A DNA stretch of 64,000 nucleotides, taken from contig JAIRRZ010000021.1 of the NCBI GenBank assembly GCA_031255715.1, positions 286 through 64,285 of the forward strand. The letters are read 5' to 3'. The DNA is from Puniceicoccales bacterium (GTDB lineage: Bacteria; Verrucomicrobiota; Verrucomicrobiia; Opitutales; LL51). Under the pieces are notes generated by a model. It had not been told where the DNA came from, searched no databases, and was given only the letters and a program-made list of their open reading frames with translations. The translations under genes were made by a program, and so were the position numbers. Of this stretch, positions 32,483 to 41,979 are shown one piece after another (position 1 is the stretch's first letter; each line of letters starts with the position of its first letter).

Positions 32483-32588
32483 AAACGGGAGCTAAATTGG
32501 ATAAAATTCGAAAAAAGTCCAGAATTTTATAAAAAAACAGCTAACCTGCAAAAGAAACATTTTGAAACATCCGCTATTTAATCCCATC

Positions 32589-32612
32589 AAAAAGCACCCC
32601 AAGGGGTGCTTT
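32589..32612 (-). terminator. Rho-independent terminator of ANK gene 1 (family-conserved cassette)
   Basis: GCACCCC-AA-GGGGTGC is preceded on the + strand by A5, which gives a U-run on the - strand. Near-identical copies lie at 34501 and 36913. Confidence 0.7.
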
Positions 32613-32707
32613 AATTGTTTTCCTATGGAACACAATAATTCACCAGAAAACTTGAAATCGAAAAGATAATGCTAAGCCTATGTTTTGCATATTCTATGTT
32701 ATTACCA

Positions 32708-34345
32708 TTAATCAACCAAGTTACTTAAGCTTTGCCTTCTGGCAGAGGCAATTCCATTTACCGGACTTTTGGGCGGCCTCCGCGAACTACCCATGTGTGA
32801 CCCGAAATTTTGTCTTGCTGAATTGACAGTTGTTGATAATTGATTCCGCCTAGGTACATTTCTGATAACGCCAACACTCTTATTCCTGCTTCTCATTCCT
32901 GAATTTAGAGCCTGTTGGGCAGCTCTCCTAACATTCCCGCTTCCCATTCCTGGACTTGGAGCCTGTGGGGCAGCTCTCCTAACACTCACTGCGCTACGGG
33001 TTAAAGTTGTTGTTTCGCTTTTTCGGTTTGGAGCCTGTGAGACAGCTCTCCTAACATTCACTTCTGCGCTATGGGTTGAAGTTGTTTCGCTATTTCGGTC
33101 TGGAGCCTGTGAGGCAGCTCTTTTGTCATTCACTGCTGCGCTATGGGTTGAAGTTGTTTCGCTATTTCGGTCTGGAGCCTGTGAGACAACTTCCTTGTCA
33201 TTCACTGCTGCGCTATGGGTTGAAGTTGTTTCGCTTTTTCGGTTTGGAGCCTGTGAGGCAGCTTCCTTGTCATTCACTACTGCGCTACGGCTACGGGTTG
33301 AAGTTATTTCGCTACTTCTTCGGCCTGGAGCCTGTAAGGCAGCTCTTTTGTCATTCACTGCTGCGCTACGGTCAGTTGCTCCATTTTTCGTTTGAGGTTC
33401 AGTATTGAAAAAGAATAGCGCTATGATTTTACCATATTTTTCTTGGGCCTCATCGCGTACATCTATGCAACGACCCATACCATTACGAATTTTCTTTCGG
33501 CCAATTGCCTGTTGCGTCAGCTCTACGGGACTAATACCTTTCTTATTGTCCGCAAACTTATCAGCACCTCTTTTTAATAGTGCTTTTACGCATTCCACAT
33601 TCGGATCGCCAGCAAATAAAACGCTATGCAAAGGTGTATCGCCATACTTATTCTGCGCGTTGATGTTAGCTTCATTTTTGCACAACAGCTCAACCATTTC
33701 CGGAGTACCCGCATAATGTAATGGCGTATTTCCATGCCCATCAGTTTCATTTGGATTAGTACCTTCGCAAAGCAGCTGAGTTACCTCTAATATATCATTA
33801 TTCGCTACCGCCTCATGGATTTTACTTGGAAATAACTTCTGGATTTGAGCATGTATTTCTTTTCCTTCACTGTCTACACCTATGGAATTAGACCAGCCAT
33901 TATAAACTATGCCATTTTTAATTGCTTCTCTTACCTTGAACCTGGGCGAATGGCCCCTTCTATTTTTTATGTCTGGGTTTGCACCGTTCGCCAATAGCAC
34001 TCCTATGTATTCTAGGCATGGACAGGGTATAGCTACGGCATCAAGTAAAGGTGTATCGCCATACTTATTCTGCGCGTTGATGTTAGCTCCCTTTTTGCAC
34101 AACAGCTCAACCATTTCCGGAGTATTCGCATAATGTAATAGCGTATTTCCTTGCCTATCAGTTCCATTTAGATCAGCACCTTCGCGAAGCAACTGAATTA
34201 CCTCTGATATCTCATTATCCGCTACCGCCTCATGGAGCAGAGAACTACTGGCTTGGAGGTGGGAAAATGCAAAACTTCCCAGCAAAAGACTTCCAAATGC
34301 AATACTTTTCAATGATTTACTCTTAAAAACATTTATTTTTTTCAT
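32708..34345 (-). CDS. Secreted ankyrin-repeat protein 1 (545 aa) with a 24-aa tandem-repeat tail
   Basis: The signal peptide is MKKINVFKSKSLKSIAFGSLLLGSFAFSHLQA|S. ANK units read GNTLLHYA..PEMVELLCKKGANINAQNKYGDTPL. The tail has repeats SAAVNDKxxxSQAPxRxSETTSTH. Confidence 0.9.
   Translation of the reverse strand: MKKINVFKSKSLKSIAFGSLLLGSFAFSHLQASSSLLHEAVADNEISEVIQLLREGADLNGTDRQGNTLLHYANTPEMVELLCKKGANINAQNKYGDTPLLDAVAIPCPCLEYIGVLLANGANPDIKNRRGHSPRFKVREAIKNGIVYNGWSNSIGVDSEGKEIHAQIQKLFPSKIHEAVANNDILEVTQLLCEGTNPNETDGHGNTPLHYAGTPEMVELLCKNEANINAQNKYGDTPLHSVLFAGDPNVECVKALLKRGADKFADNKKGISPVELTQQAIGRKKIRNGMGRCIDVRDEAQEKYGKIIALFFFNTEPQTKNGATDRSAAVNDKRAALQAPGRRSSEITSTRSRSAVVNDKEAASQAPNRKSETTSTHSAAVNDKEVVSQAPDRNSETTSTHSAAVNDKRAASQAPDRNSETTSTHSAEVNVRRAVSQAPNRKSETTTLTRSAVSVRRAAPQAPSPGMGSGNVRRAAQQALNSGMRSRNKSVGVIRNVPRRNQLSTTVNSARQNFGSHMGSSRRPPKSPVNGIASARRQSLSNLVD
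32985..33375. repeat. 72-bp in-frame tandem repeat (about 5 copies) in the ANK1 tail
   Basis: The unit starts at 33059, 33131, 33203 and 33275, an exact 72-bp phase. Confidence 0.85.
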
Positions 34346-41729: not shown

Positions 41730-41780
41730 TTTTACATCCTTTGTTTATATTTAATACAAGATGCGTTAAATATTTATATT

Positions 41781-41808
41781 ACACTAGGCATAATTGTTAA
41801 CCTGTCAA
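41781..41808 (-). promoter_or_regulatory. Conserved sigma70-type promoter of ANK gene 3
   Basis: On the minus strand: TTGACA (41808-41803), N16, TAGTGT (41786-41781). Confidence 0.45.
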
Positions 41809-41979
41809 CACAAAGTAAATAAAACATTTATTAACCCTTAAAGGGTTTTCGTGAAAAAAATTCAATGTAAATCGCAAAACATAATTAGTTAATTTGATTT
41901 AGTTTAATTTAATTTATACTAAATTTTGCTCCACATTCGTCATGGTAATTTTTTATCAATAATATGTTTGCGATTTTAT

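What the first reader, a model, noticed from the sequence alone, without database searches (positions are those of the whole stretch)
32483..41900. Tandem array of three Sec-signal ankyrin-repeat genes amplified as whole promoter-gene-terminator cassettes
The three consecutive minus-strand genes are 545, 706 and 1560 aa. They share several conserved parts:
- a near-identical signal peptide, M(K/E)K(I/V)NVF(K/R)(S/N/K)KSLKS(I/V)AF(G/E)SLLLGSFAFS;
- a conserved upstream block with TTGACA-N16-TA(G/A)T(A/G)T and the same leader (…TTATATTTAATA…);
- a conserved downstream block with the terminator A5-GCACCCC-AA(T)-GGGGTGC and flanking sequence (TCCTATGGAACACAAT..AATTCACCAGAAAA..TGAAATCGAAAAGATAAT at 32621 and 36946).

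This pattern indicates amplification by unequal recombination of complete expression units. Secreted ANK proteins are classic host-targeting effectors, for example AnkA of Anaplasma and the Ank proteins of Legionella and Coxiella. Here the export signal is Sec-type, which implies a two-step route (T2SS, vesicles or periplasmic release) rather than T3SS/T4SS.
Basis: partly seen in the sequence, partly recalled or inferred. Interest (0 to 1): 0.78.

Follow-up and report, generated by a model that had tools for sequence, protein, structure and literature searches.

The report
Tandem exported ankyrin genes, shared cassettes
Three neighbouring genes of an uncultured bacterium, probably from termite guts, encode exported ankyrin-repeat proteins that share a promoter, export signal and terminator while the rest of each protein diverges fast, a real and well-built but fairly ordinary example of a symbiont-type protein family.

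Summary
There are three intact minus-strand genes of 545, 706 and 1560 aa. Each has a TTGACA-N16-TAnTnT promoter, a conserved leader, a near-identical Sec-type signal peptide and a GC-hairpin/T-tract terminator.

The window is a contig of a Puniceicoccales (Verrucomicrobiota) MAG. Its closest relatives are termite-gut MAGs of a study that proposes Opitutales families from lower termites as flagellate endosymbionts. Whether this MAG belongs to those families was not tested.

Each protein is built as signal peptide, then 1, 2 or 9 copies of a ~145-aa ankyrin cluster, then a repeat-rich disordered tail (strongly basic in two of the three).

The same site, between an MBL-fold hydrolase gene and an M42 peptidase gene, holds 0 to at least 4 such genes in related MAGs. 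Every copy is flanked by the same cassette.

Cassettes are more alike within a genome than between genomes, while gene bodies are not. This points to concerted evolution plus birth-and-death, not a recent amplification.

Export across the inner membrane is well supported by sequence. Delivery to a host is plausible but untested, and periplasmic retention (as in Rickettsia RARP-1) remains a serious rival. I rate it a new member of a known kind, of moderate interest.

The parts
32591..32612 (-). Intrinsic terminator after the 545-aa gene (AAAGCACCCCTTGGGGTGCTTT followed by T's)
   Evidence: It folds at -13.9 kcal/mol, z -3.0.
32597..32700 (-). 3' UTR block shared with the 1560-aa gene (90-92% identical to 36922-37026)
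   Evidence: families D17 and D18.
32708..34345 (-). Gene A, 545 aa (NCBI MDR0418164.1). Signal peptide residues 1-32 (34250-34345), two ankyrin clusters (33413-34249), basic S/R/T-rich tail (32711-33412, pI 11.8)
32957..33368 (-). 72-nt tandem repeat, 5.6 copies, encoding the 24-aa unit AAVNDKRAASQAPDRNSETTSTHS in the tail of gene A
   Evidence: D10, D14.
34346..34636 (-). Intergenic cassette 1. It holds the terminator of gene B (34503-34525) and the promoter of gene A (-35 TTGACA at 34424-34419, 16-nt spacer, -10 TAGTAT at 34402-34397), followed by the leader and Shine-Dalgarno sequence
34637..36757 (-). Gene B, 706 aa (MDR0418165.1). Signal peptide about residues 1-33, one ankyrin cluster (36206-36634), 522-aa G/S/Q/T/R-rich tail of nested tandem repeats (34640-36205) ending in STEW
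36758..37046 (-). Intergenic cassette 2. It holds the 3' block and terminator of gene C (36915-36937) and the promoter of gene B (-35 at 36836-36831, -10 TAATAT at 36814-36809), followed by the leader
   Evidence: (D9: 88% to cassette 1 over 277 nt).
37047..41729 (-). Gene C, 1560 aa (MDR0418166.1). Signal peptide residues 1-32 (41634-41729), nine ankyrin clusters (37665-41630), basic tail (37050-37664, pI 12.0)
38103..40775 (-). Three-cluster segmental duplication inside gene C. Clusters 3-5 (39471-40775) and clusters 6-8 (38103-39470) pair as 3/6, 4/7 and 5/8 at 65-68% aa identity
   Evidence: D13, 84% nt; 438-nt period.
37338..37527 (-). 57-nt tandem repeat, 3.3 copies, 97% matches, encoding SSVRGATLNSHLASSRTPA in the tail of gene C
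   Evidence: D15.
41730..41830 (-). Promoter and leader of gene C (-35 TTGACA at 41808-41803, 16-nt spacer, -10 TAGTGT at 41786-41781). It is 73-74% identical to the other two promoters. The terminator part of the cassette is missing here, because this is the first gene of the array
31412..32482 (-). M42 peptidase gene, the conserved downstream border of the array
41926..42711 (+). MBL-fold hydrolase gene, the conserved upstream border of the array

Best explanation
This is a lineage-specific, fast-evolving tandem family of Sec-exported modular ankyrin proteins. It sits in an uncultured Puniceicoccales bacterium (Opitutales in the naming of the termite study; Verrucomicrobiota) whose close relatives are termite-gut MAGs.

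**Expression (inferred from sequence).** Each gene is its own transcription unit. It has a sigma-70-type promoter (TTGACA, 16 nt, TAnTnT), a leader of about 45-50 nt with a Shine-Dalgarno sequence, and an intrinsic terminator.

**Protein design (shown by sequence and model).** Each protein starts with a signal peptide with a 13-residue n-region carrying net charge +3 to +6, a 15-residue h-region, and LQA|S. After it come 1, 2 or 9 copies of a ~145-aa ankyrin cluster. Each cluster has about 3.5 ankyrin repeats, a beta-hairpin and a long connecting helix. The arrangement resembles tankyrase ARCs or rigid DARPin fusions. The protein ends in a disordered tail of tandem repeats, strongly basic in genes A and C.

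**Evolution (shown comparatively).** The array lies at a hot spot between an MBL-fold hydrolase gene and an M42 peptidase gene. Related MAGs hold 0 to at least 4 copies there. The roughly 290-bp terminator-promoter-leader-signal-peptide cassette between genes is kept similar within a genome by gene conversion or unequal crossing-over, and it supplies the homology for gain and loss of copies. The mature parts diverge rapidly, and clusters also amplify inside genes.

**Function (inferred, not shown).** After Sec export the proteins are released from the periplasm, by a type II system, vesicles or lysis. Outside the cell they act as multivalent binders of eukaryotic (protist host) proteins.
For: **Genes and domains.**

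**Promoter.**
- The -35 core (TTG.C) and the TA...T of the -10 are invariant across 14 cassettes from 7 contigs, while the 16-nt spacer differs between genomes.
- The scan finds the window promoters directly.

**Terminator.**
- Stable hairpins.
- 97.3% of cells are paired in 11 sequences.
- One pair switches between U-A and C-G.

**Signal peptide.**
- Tripartite, with no Cys lipobox and no twin arginine.
- The design is kept in relatives: L002, L006, and a second subfamily starting MNKSYNIKNKFLKNI..GSFAGT.SQLQA.

**Clusters.**
- An HMM counts 9, 2 and 1 in the window and 43 in 18 family proteins.
- The AlphaFold two-cluster model has pLDDT 94.
- The best PDB matches are DARPin-DARPin rigid fusions and tankyrase ARC2-3.

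**Fast evolution.**
- Cluster identity across the window's paralogues is about 32-42%.
- Whole proteins are 38-43% identical to those of the sister MAG.
- By contrast, the flanking M42, GspE-like and ValS proteins are 94%, 92% and 88% identical to the sister MAG.
- dN/dS is 0.5-0.84 for recently duplicated clusters.
- The variable columns sit next to the GxTPLH turns and in an insertion in repeat 3.

**Concerted evolution.**
- Within a genome, cassette identity is 68-95% upstream (85-95% for the closest pairs), 86-98% in the signal peptide, and up to 91-96% downstream (L005).
- Between genomes the corresponding figures are about 63-88%.
- The body of L005 gene 2 is closest to the single-cluster gene of L004 (72%) rather than to its own paralogues (63-65%).
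- The NJ trees of cassette and body disagree.
- Signal-peptide pS is 0.12-0.36, against 0.50-0.58 in the first cluster.

**Copy number and turnover.** The locus survey is. A truncated copy without promoter or signal peptide lies at L004 11612-12007.

**Host context.**
- The closest genomes are MAGs with accessions JAIRXD to JAITNS.
- These fall inside the range JAIRJQ-JAITXW of the termite-gut MAGs of PMC11257099.
- Signal-peptide ankyrin families are known from protist parasites and symbiont phages (PMC6561590; bioRxiv 10.1101/608950).
Against: - No signal-peptide predictor or experiment was available, so cleavage and localisation rest on sequence rules.
- No outer-membrane secretion system was found for these proteins. 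The neighbouring GspE/PilB-like ATPase is merely syntenic, and it also lies next to the M42 gene in relatives that have no ankyrin gene beside it.
- Rickettsia RARP-1 shows that a Sec-signal ankyrin protein of an intracellular bacterium can be periplasmic.
- Host association is taken from accession ranges and a paper about the clade, not shown for this MAG. Its family-level placement was not determined.
- The concerted-evolution inference rests on identity matrices and NJ trees without bootstrap, and on 28-codon signal peptides.
- High dN/dS could reflect relaxed constraint rather than adaptation.
- This is a short-read MAG assembly. Exact repeat numbers in the tails and clusters may be wrong, and related contigs break at these arrays (L002, L006 and probably L001).
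Confidence: 0.6

Rival explanations
1. The proteins are exported by Sec but stay in the periplasm or envelope and act on bacterial partners. Possible roles are envelope or assembly factors, or immunity and self-protection proteins against periplasm-acting toxins. On this reading the tandem arrays would be immunity-gene islands.
For: - RARP-1 of Rickettsia has a Sec signal, ankyrin repeats and a disordered region, and was shown to be periplasmic and not secreted.
- No dedicated secretion genes or C-terminal sorting domain were found.
- Relatives carry small single-cluster versions of about 180 aa, a size typical of immunity proteins.
- Tandem, fast-diverging arrays are typical of orphan immunity genes (my own knowledge).
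- Ankyrin-mediated self-protection in Bdellovibrio is cited in PMC6561590.
Against: - No toxin, T6SS or peptidoglycan-hydrolase gene lies near the array in the window or in any related locus.
- A 1560-aa protein with nine clusters, and disordered tails of 200-520 aa (two of them at pI about 12), are unlike known immunity proteins.
- The family with this cassette was found only in the clade of termite-gut MAGs.
Confidence: 0.22
2. The proteins are cell-surface or matrix proteins. The tail anchors them to the envelope (LPS or peptidoglycan), and the ankyrin clusters are displayed for attachment to a protist surface or to other bacteria. The variable arrays would then give surface variation, as in the variable surface-protein families of mycoplasmas.
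For: - The 5' expression and signal cassette is conserved while the mature parts are divergent and rich in tandem repeats.
- The tails of genes A and C are strongly basic.
- Copy number varies between related genomes.
Against: - There is no lipobox, transmembrane segment, beta-barrel or known anchor motif.
- No invertible element or other switch flanks the promoters. Each gene has its own intact promoter, so there is no sign of phase variation.
Confidence: 0.1
3. The array is an assembly artefact, or a set of decaying pseudogenes with no function.
For: - It is a short-read MAG, and related contigs end at these arrays.
- Internal repeats are extensive.
Against: - All three ORFs are intact over 545-1560 codons.
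- The cassettes are 73-92% identical rather than identical, so the copies are distinguishable.
- The same architecture recurs independently in contigs from at least five other metagenome samples.
- The promoter hexamers and the terminator pairing are conserved.
Confidence: 0.03

Closest known systems
Signal-peptide ankyrin families of protist-associated bacteria and symbiont phages. Examples: Chromulinavorax destructans (Dependentiae), with 98 ankyrin proteins of which 78% carry a signal peptide (PMC6561590), and the sponge-symbiont phage ANKp (bioRxiv 10.1101/608950).
   Same: Sec-type signal followed by ankyrin repeats with no transmembrane anchor, expanded into families, in bacteria that live with eukaryotic cells. 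Host manipulation after secretion is the presumed role, and for ANKp it was tested.
   Different: A different phylum. There is no sequence relationship beyond generic ankyrin repeats. The ~145-aa cluster with hairpin and helix linker, the repeat tails and the shared promoter/terminator cassette are, as far as I found, not described there.
Rickettsia RARP-1
   Same: Sec signal peptide plus ankyrin repeats, and (my own knowledge) an intrinsically disordered repeat region, in an intracellular bacterium.
   Different: RARP-1 is a single conserved gene with the ankyrin repeats at the C-terminus (my own knowledge). It was shown to be periplasmic rather than secreted. Here the ankyrin clusters come first, the tail last, and the genes form variable arrays.
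T4SS-translocated Ank effectors (Legionella and Coxiella Anks, Anaplasma AnkA)
   Same: Ankyrin repeats used by host-associated bacteria. Families evolve fast and vary in repeat number.
   Different: Those lack N-terminal Sec signals and depend on a type IV system with C-terminal signals (my own knowledge). The proteins here have a Sec signal, and no T4SS gene was seen in the window.
Tankyrase ankyrin repeat clusters (ARC1-5) and engineered DARPin-DARPin rigid fusions
   Same: A string of separate ankyrin clusters joined by helices. These are the top Foldseek matches to the two-cluster model. This suggests several independent binding sites per protein.
   Different: An analogy of architecture only: TM-scores are 0.35-0.40 and sequence identity 21-29%. 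The hairpin and linker helix of the module have no match to a solved structure by sequence.
Variable surface lipoprotein gene families of mycoplasmas (Vsp, Vlp, Vsa). From my own knowledge, not checked here.
   Same: Tandem multigene families with a highly conserved 5' region (promoter, leader, signal peptide) followed by divergent mature regions made of in-frame tandem repeats. Recombination takes place among the copies.
   Different: Those have lipoprotein signals and phase-variation switches. Here the signal has no lipobox and no switch was found.

Membership tests
Ankyrin-repeat proteins (Pfam Ank clan: PF00023, PF12796, PF13637 and others) | Significant matches to the ankyrin-repeat profiles | tested here: met
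   E-values of 1e-30, 2e-14 and 5e-119 for the three proteins, all above the gathering scores.
Ankyrin-repeat proteins (Pfam Ank clan) | Stacked helix-turn-helix plus beta-turn repeat fold | tested here: met
   The AlphaFold2 model of two clusters has pLDDT 94. 765 PDB matches at E<=0.001; the 50 best listed are all ankyrin-repeat or DARPin chains.
Sec (signal peptidase I) exported proteins | Tripartite signal: positively charged n-region, h-region shorter than a transmembrane helix, small residues at -1 and -3 | tested here: met
   The n-region carries net charge +3 to +6. The h-region is 15 residues. LQA|S is present in two of the three proteins (S-F-S|S in the 706-aa one) and is conserved in relatives. 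This is a rule-based reading only.
Sec (signal peptidase I) exported proteins | No lipobox cysteine and no twin-arginine motif | tested here: met
   No L-x-x-C follows the h-region and there is no RR in the n-region.
Sec (signal peptidase I) exported proteins | Demonstrated export and cleavage | not testable with these tools
   This needs SignalP or DeepSig, PhoA/BlaM fusions or N-terminal sequencing.
T4SS-translocated Ank effectors (Legionella, Coxiella, Anaplasma type) | No N-terminal Sec signal; translocation by a type IV system through a C-terminal signal | tested here: not met
   A Sec-type signal is present. No T4SS component was seen among the window's annotated genes. The rest of the genome could not be read.
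Type II secretion substrates | Sec or Tat signal plus a complete T2SS (secretin GspD, GspF, pseudopilins) in the genome | tested here: inconclusive
   The signal is present. Only a GspE/PilB-like ATPase lacking the N-terminal ~100 residues lies nearby, and it is also present in relatives without ankyrin genes at this site. The genome outside the window was not available.
Intrinsic (Rho-independent) terminators | GC-rich stem-loop followed directly by a T-tract, downstream of the stop codon | tested here: met
   Across 11 family terminators, 97.3% of cells are paired and there is one compensatory U-A/C-G pair.
Sigma-70-type promoters | -35 and -10 hexamers at 16-18 nt spacing, conserved while the spacer varies | tested here: met
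   TTGACA-16-TAnTnT. The hexamer cores are invariant in 14 cassettes with variable spacers. The region-wide count of promoter-like sites is not above chance (23 against 24.1 expected), so the support comes from conservation. The transcription start is not testable here.
Phase-variable surface protein families (mycoplasma Vsp/Vlp type) | Lipoprotein signal and a switch (invertible promoter or a homopolymer tract in the promoter) | tested here: not met
   There is no lipobox. The only inverted repeats around the promoters are the palindromic terminators themselves.
Anti-phage defence systems (PADLOC) | Match to a defence-protein model beyond the generic repeat | tested here: not met
   Only the ankyrin parts of two models match (PDC-M72A positions 261-374; 'Ankyrin' positions 731-849).

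The most novel reading that the evidence does not exclude
The terminator-promoter-leader-signal-peptide cassette may be a maintained 'portable expression and export module'. Gene conversion would keep its copies alike so that ankyrin genes can be gained, lost and reshuffled at one hot spot. That would give each strain of an uncultured protist symbiont its own repertoire of exported multivalent binders.

In addition, the basic, Ser/Arg/Lys-rich repeat tails of genes A and C (for example RKKDKARIPTRKKSK in gene C) may direct the proteins to host nucleic acid or the host nucleus. That would fit the intranuclear lifestyle of Candidatus Nucleococcus, which the termite study places in the same order.
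Probability: 0.2. Interest if true: 0.6.

Novelty: new member of a known kind. Interest (0 to 1): 0.4.

Why it matters
Verrucomicrobial symbionts of protists are uncultured, and a full-text search for 'Puniceicoccales' together with 'ankyrin' returned no paper. This locus offers three things:

- **Candidates.** It gives a defined set of candidate host-interaction proteins with a recognisable export signal.
- **A marker.** The site between the MBL-fold hydrolase and M42 peptidase genes can be used to compare strains.
- **A case study.** It is a clean natural example in which regulatory and export sequences are homogenised while the binding domains diversify.

If the proteins do reach the host, the nine-cluster protein would be a natural multivalent scaffold comparable to tankyrase. 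If they stay in the periplasm, it is a further warning against reading every ankyrin protein of a symbiont as an effector.

Tried and rejected
- **Chlamydiae origin.** This was my first guess from GC content and gene content. It was rejected: the neighbouring M42 peptidase and ValS match 'Puniceicoccales bacterium' MAGs at 88-94%.
- **Signal-peptide DNA pattern in species-representative genomes.** 0 hits. The MAG itself is not in that collection, so family size in this genome could not be measured.
- **Exact look-up of the 545-aa protein on contigs.** Not on record, although the protein is in the protein collection.
- **Single-sequence AlphaFold of gene A.** Useless, pLDDT 44. It was replaced by an alignment-based model.
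- **Profile search of 1.84 billion representatives.** Swamped by generic ankyrin proteins (501,031 hits). Only three hits begin at the signal peptide.
- **Conserved 5'-UTR hairpin** (AACGCATGTTGCGTT in some relatives). There is no consensus structure across 14 leaders.
- **Rfam.** The only hit in 26000-44000 is the SRP RNA at 27066-27164, which lies outside the array.
- **Pfam on the three tails and on the Pro-rich neighbour, at E up to 10.** Nothing meaningful. The weak DUF892 match and the EAD1/EAD11 matches, which fall below their cut-offs, lie inside the ankyrin regions and were ignored.
- **PADLOC.** Only the generic ankyrin parts match.
- **Invertible-promoter search.** Negative.
- **Supplementary tables of PMC11257099.** The stored text held none of the accession or family terms, so the termite species and the GTDB family of this MAG remain unconfirmed.
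- **Tool behaviour.** In both ankyrin searches no listed hit was longer than about 1.75 times the query. The first search (172-aa query) therefore missed the longer family members, and a second search with the full protein was needed.
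Full report

Yes. The three minus-strand ORFs are at 32708-34345 (545 aa), 34637-36757 (706 aa) and 37047-41729 (1560 aa). 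All three match the Pfam ankyrin families far above threshold.

- **Signal peptide.** The first 28 codons are nearly the same in all three. A 33-nt piece of this coding sequence occurs exactly three times in 64 kb, where none is expected by chance.
- **Promoter and leader.** Upstream of each gene lies TTGACA, 16 nt, then TAGTAT / TAATAT / TAGTGT, followed by the leader TATTAAATATAAA and a Shine-Dalgarno-like AAAGG.
- **Terminator.** Downstream of each gene lies AAAGCACCCC(A)TTGGGGTGCTTTTT. It folds at -13.9 to -18.4 kcal/mol, with z-scores of -3.0 to -4.5.
- **Shared blocks.** The block from terminator to the end of the signal peptide is 88% identical over 277 nt between the two intergenic regions. 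The 3' block of the 545-aa gene matches that of the 1560-aa gene at 90-92%.
- **One refinement.** The 706-aa gene shares only the terminator at its 3' end.

**2. Where does it come from?**

My first guess, Chlamydiae, was wrong.

- The three proteins are NCBI MDR0418164.1 to MDR0418166.1, annotated 'MAG: ankyrin repeat domain-containing protein [Puniceicoccales bacterium]', on a 69,867-bp contig.
- The flanking genes are ordinary housekeeping genes: ValS, PPi-phosphofructokinase, GlmS, RarA, RpoD, DnaG, MutS and PNPase.
- The nearest genomes are MAGs with accessions JAIRXD to JAITNS and isolate names such as Gsp477_bin70, Nc350_bin186, Pcl387_bin18 and Im510_bin18.
- These accessions fall inside the range JAIRJQ-JAITXW deposited for termite-gut MAGs by Mies et al. 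2024 (PMC11257099).
- That paper describes a large clade of Verrucomicrobiota (Opitutales families LL51 and UBA9783) from lower termites. Its members have small genomes and low GC. The authors regard them as putative endosymbionts of gut flagellates, and they place the intranuclear Candidatus Nucleococcus in the putatively endosymbiotic Opitutales.
- The link between this particular MAG and that clade is an inference from accession ranges and sequence relatedness. Its family-level placement was not shown.

**3. Anatomy of the proteins**

- **Signal peptide.** The n-region is 13 residues with net charge +3 to +6. The h-region is 15 residues and moderately hydrophobic. It is followed by P or H and then LQA|S, with no lipobox cysteine and no twin arginine. 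The h-region is too short for a membrane anchor. In the 706-aa protein the c-region is PKSFS|S, so its cleavage site is less clear.
- **Ankyrin clusters.** A profile built from one repeat unit finds nine units in the 1560-aa protein, two in the 545-aa protein and one in the 706-aa protein. Across 18 family proteins from all loci it finds 43 units.
- **Structure of a unit.** An AlphaFold2 model of two consecutive units is confident (pLDDT 94, pTM 0.76). Each unit has three ankyrin repeats plus the first helix of a fourth, then a beta-hairpin, then a long helix that leads into the next unit.
- **Structural analogues.** The best PDB matches are engineered DARPin-DARPin rigid fusions and tankyrase ARC2-3. 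By sequence only the ankyrin part (about residues 3-110) matches solved structures. The hairpin and linker helix do not. The useful analogy is therefore a string of separate ankyrin clusters, each probably a binding site of its own.
- **Tails.** The tails are 234, 522 and 205 aa long and are made of tandem repeats. The units are 72 nt and 57 nt in genes A and C, and nested 15- to 426-nt units in gene B. They are rich in Ser, Thr, Arg, Gly and Gln. The tails of genes A and C have a pI of about 12. None matches any Pfam family.

**4. Comparative picture**

The site between the MBL-fold hydrolase gene and the M42 peptidase gene is conserved in relatives. A survey of the loci fetched gives these copy numbers:

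| Ankyrin genes seen | Loci |
|---|---|
| 0 upstream of M42 | Four related MAGs (L011, L013, L014, L016), and L015, where the MBL and M42 genes are neighbours |
| 1 | L009, L010, L012 |
| 2 | L007, L029 |
| 3 | This window |
| At least 4 | L005 |
| 4 (array next to RarA; no MBL or M42 gene seen in the 21-kb locus) | L004, of which one is a truncated copy lacking promoter and signal peptide |

- The sister MAG (M42 peptidase 94% identical) has at least three genes, split over two contigs that break at the array.
- Its first partial gene has clusters like those of gene C and a Ser/Thr/Arg-rich repeat tail, so the three-part design is conserved.
- More distant Opitutales MAGs, with M42 about 55% identical, have no ankyrin gene upstream of the M42 gene.

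**5. The cassette is functional**

- Every array gene in every genome is preceded by the same layout: terminator, about 100 nt, promoter, leader, signal peptide.
- In an alignment of 14 promoters, the -35 core and the TA...T of the -10 are invariant at a fixed 16-nt spacing, while the spacer sequence differs between genomes. That is what a functional sigma-70 promoter should look like. An RpoD gene is present in the window.
- The terminator stem is paired in 97.3% of cells across 11 sequences. One position alternates between U-A and C-G.

**6. How the array evolves**

- **Bodies are old.** The ankyrin clusters of the window's three paralogues are about 32-42% identical to one another, against 50-68% for the most similar clusters inside one protein. 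Synonymous divergence between the first clusters (dS 0.83-1.12) exceeds the divergence between this MAG and its sister (dS 0.33-0.55 for M42, GspE-like and ValS). The gene bodies are therefore older than that split, and this was not a recent amplification.
- **Cassettes are young or homogenised.** Within a genome the cassettes are 68-95% identical upstream (85-95% for the closest pairs), 86-98% in the signal peptide, and up to 91-96% downstream (L005). Between genomes the figures are about 63-88%.
- **Bodies and cassettes disagree.** The single-cluster gene of L005 is closest in its body to the single-cluster gene of L004 (72%, against 63-65% to its own paralogues). Its cassette, however, is closest to its own genome's copies. 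NJ trees of cassette and body disagree accordingly.
- **Signal-peptide codons agree with this.** Synonymous differences there are fewer (pS 0.12-0.36) than in the first cluster (0.50-0.58).
- **Boundary of the tract.** The 88%-identical block ends 85 nt into the coding sequence, which is codon 28 and the end of the signal-peptide core.
- **Reading.** I read this as concerted evolution of the cassette by gene conversion or unequal crossing-over. The cassette then also supplies the homology for gain and loss of genes. The evidence is moderate: there is no bootstrap support, and the signal-peptide regions are short.
- **Amplification inside genes.** In gene C, clusters 3-5 and 6-8 are a three-cluster duplication. 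They pair as 3/6, 4/7 and 5/8 at 65-68% aa identity, with dN/dS of 0.5-0.84.

**7. Rate of evolution**

- Between this MAG and its sister, the flanking proteins are 88-94% identical with dN/dS about 0.1. The ankyrin proteins at the same site are only 38-43% identical.
- The most variable alignment columns lie next to the GxTPLH turns, the classical ankyrin binding surface, and in a variable-length insertion in the third repeat.
- This fits diversifying binding specificity. Relaxed constraint is not excluded, and orthology of individual genes across the two MAGs is unclear.

**8. What does it do?**

- **Well supported.** Export across the inner membrane is supported by sequence.
- **Inferred.** What happens next is inference. 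I favour release and interaction with a eukaryotic host for three reasons: the likely lifestyle of the clade, the fast evolution and copy-number variation, and precedents.
  - In the protist parasite Chromulinavorax, 78% of the 98 ankyrin proteins carry signal peptides (PMC6561590).
  - A symbiont-phage ankyrin protein (ANKp) reduced phagocytosis and the immune response of eukaryotic cells towards bacteria, and two phage ankyrin proteins carry signal peptides (bioRxiv 10.1101/608950).
- **Main rival.** The main rival is periplasmic residence. RARP-1 of Rickettsia has a Sec signal and ankyrin repeats, was long thought to be secreted, and was then shown to be periplasmic.
- **No secretion machinery.** I found none tied to the array. 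The adjacent GspE/PilB-like ATPase lacks its N-terminal ~100 residues. It is also present next to the M42 gene in relatives that have no ankyrin gene beside it.
- **No defence role or switch.** There is no sign of a defence-system role or of a phase-variation switch.

**9. Comparison with what is known, and novelty**

- The proteins are ankyrin-repeat proteins with Sec-type signals.
- They most resemble, in kind, the signal-peptide ankyrin families of protist-associated bacteria. In design (signal, ankyrin repeats, disordered region) they resemble RARP-1, though with the parts in a different order.
- In genetics they recall variable surface-protein gene families with a conserved 5' cassette. 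That comparison is from my own knowledge and was not checked here.
- A full-text search for 'Puniceicoccales' with 'ankyrin' returned no paper.
- I class this as a new member of a known kind. It has two features worth a note: the tankyrase-like string of clusters, and the homogenised expression and export cassette.

**10. Caveats**

- This is a short-read metagenome assembly. Repeat numbers in the tails and clusters may be inaccurate.
- A 3-kb contig of sequencing run SRR14710884 carries the same M42 peptidase sequence and has only 556 nt upstream of that gene. By coordinates it would end inside the 72-nt tandem repeat of gene A. This is my inference, not an alignment.
- No signal-peptide predictor, whole-genome view or expression data were available.

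Noticed in passing
window 27366-30014 (+): An 882-aa protein with no Pfam match and no signal peptide. It has long proline tracts (including a run of about 35 consecutive prolines) and two segments ending in LKSV / LKKV just before more prolines, which by eye look like WH2 actin-binding motifs next to profilin-type tracts. It evolves fast: 48% aa identity to the sister MAG (dN/dS 0.6) and 26% to the next relative, while its neighbours are 88-94% identical. It ends in STAW, like the STEW end of the 706-aa ankyrin protein. It may be another host-directed protein.
   Followed up: partly
window 1-954 (+): Another ankyrin-repeat ORF that runs off the start of the window. No signal peptide of the family type is visible in the part present, so it appears to be a different kind of ankyrin protein in the same genome.
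   Followed up: partly
window 30222-31376 (+): A GspE/PilB-type secretion ATPase of 384 aa that matches only positions 105-482 of the GspE model, so it lacks the N-terminal ~100 residues. It is conserved next to the M42 peptidase gene in all close relatives, with or without ankyrin genes.
   Followed up: partly
window 43007-43462 (-): A small 151-aa protein with a hydrophobic N-terminus (MKNITIKLLKSLFLGSFFWGKLLGS) and ALTTAQ repeats (Pfam PF20080, E 2e-13), just beyond the MBL-fold gene.
   Followed up: no
window 27066-27164 (+): Bacterial small SRP RNA gene (Rfam RF00169, 63 bits).
   Followed up: no
L004 8746-12772, L005 1393-5060, L007 1199-2943, L010 3565-4584: A second subfamily in related MAGs has the signal MNKSYNIKNKFLKNI..GSFAGT.SQLQA. 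Many of its members end in a conserved C-terminal motif, LF(F/L)LP(P/Q)xLW. This could be a sorting or recognition signal. The three window proteins do not have it.
   Followed up: no
L004 11612-12007: A truncated family member (131 aa, starting inside a cluster) with a terminator upstream but no TTGACA promoter and no signal peptide. It is probably a remnant of a deletion between cassettes.
   Followed up: partly
L004 4801-8289: In one related MAG the ankyrin array lies next to flagellar export genes (FliO, FliQ, FliR and FlhB families), so at least that relative may be motile or may retain the export apparatus.
   Followed up: no
L005 (JGI 3300042643 contig, 5060 nt): Its ankyrin proteins (P0399, P0418) are labelled 'Bacteroidales bacterium' in NCBI. 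However, the contig has the MBL-fold gene plus the array with the family cassette, as in the Puniceicoccales MAGs. It is probably mis-binned.
   Followed up: partly
L004, L005 and L007 leaders (about 35 nt upstream of the start codons): The 5' leaders of the second subfamily contain an inverted repeat, AACGCATGTTGCGTT. It is degenerate in the window's leaders, and no consensus structure was found across all 14 leaders.
   Followed up: yes
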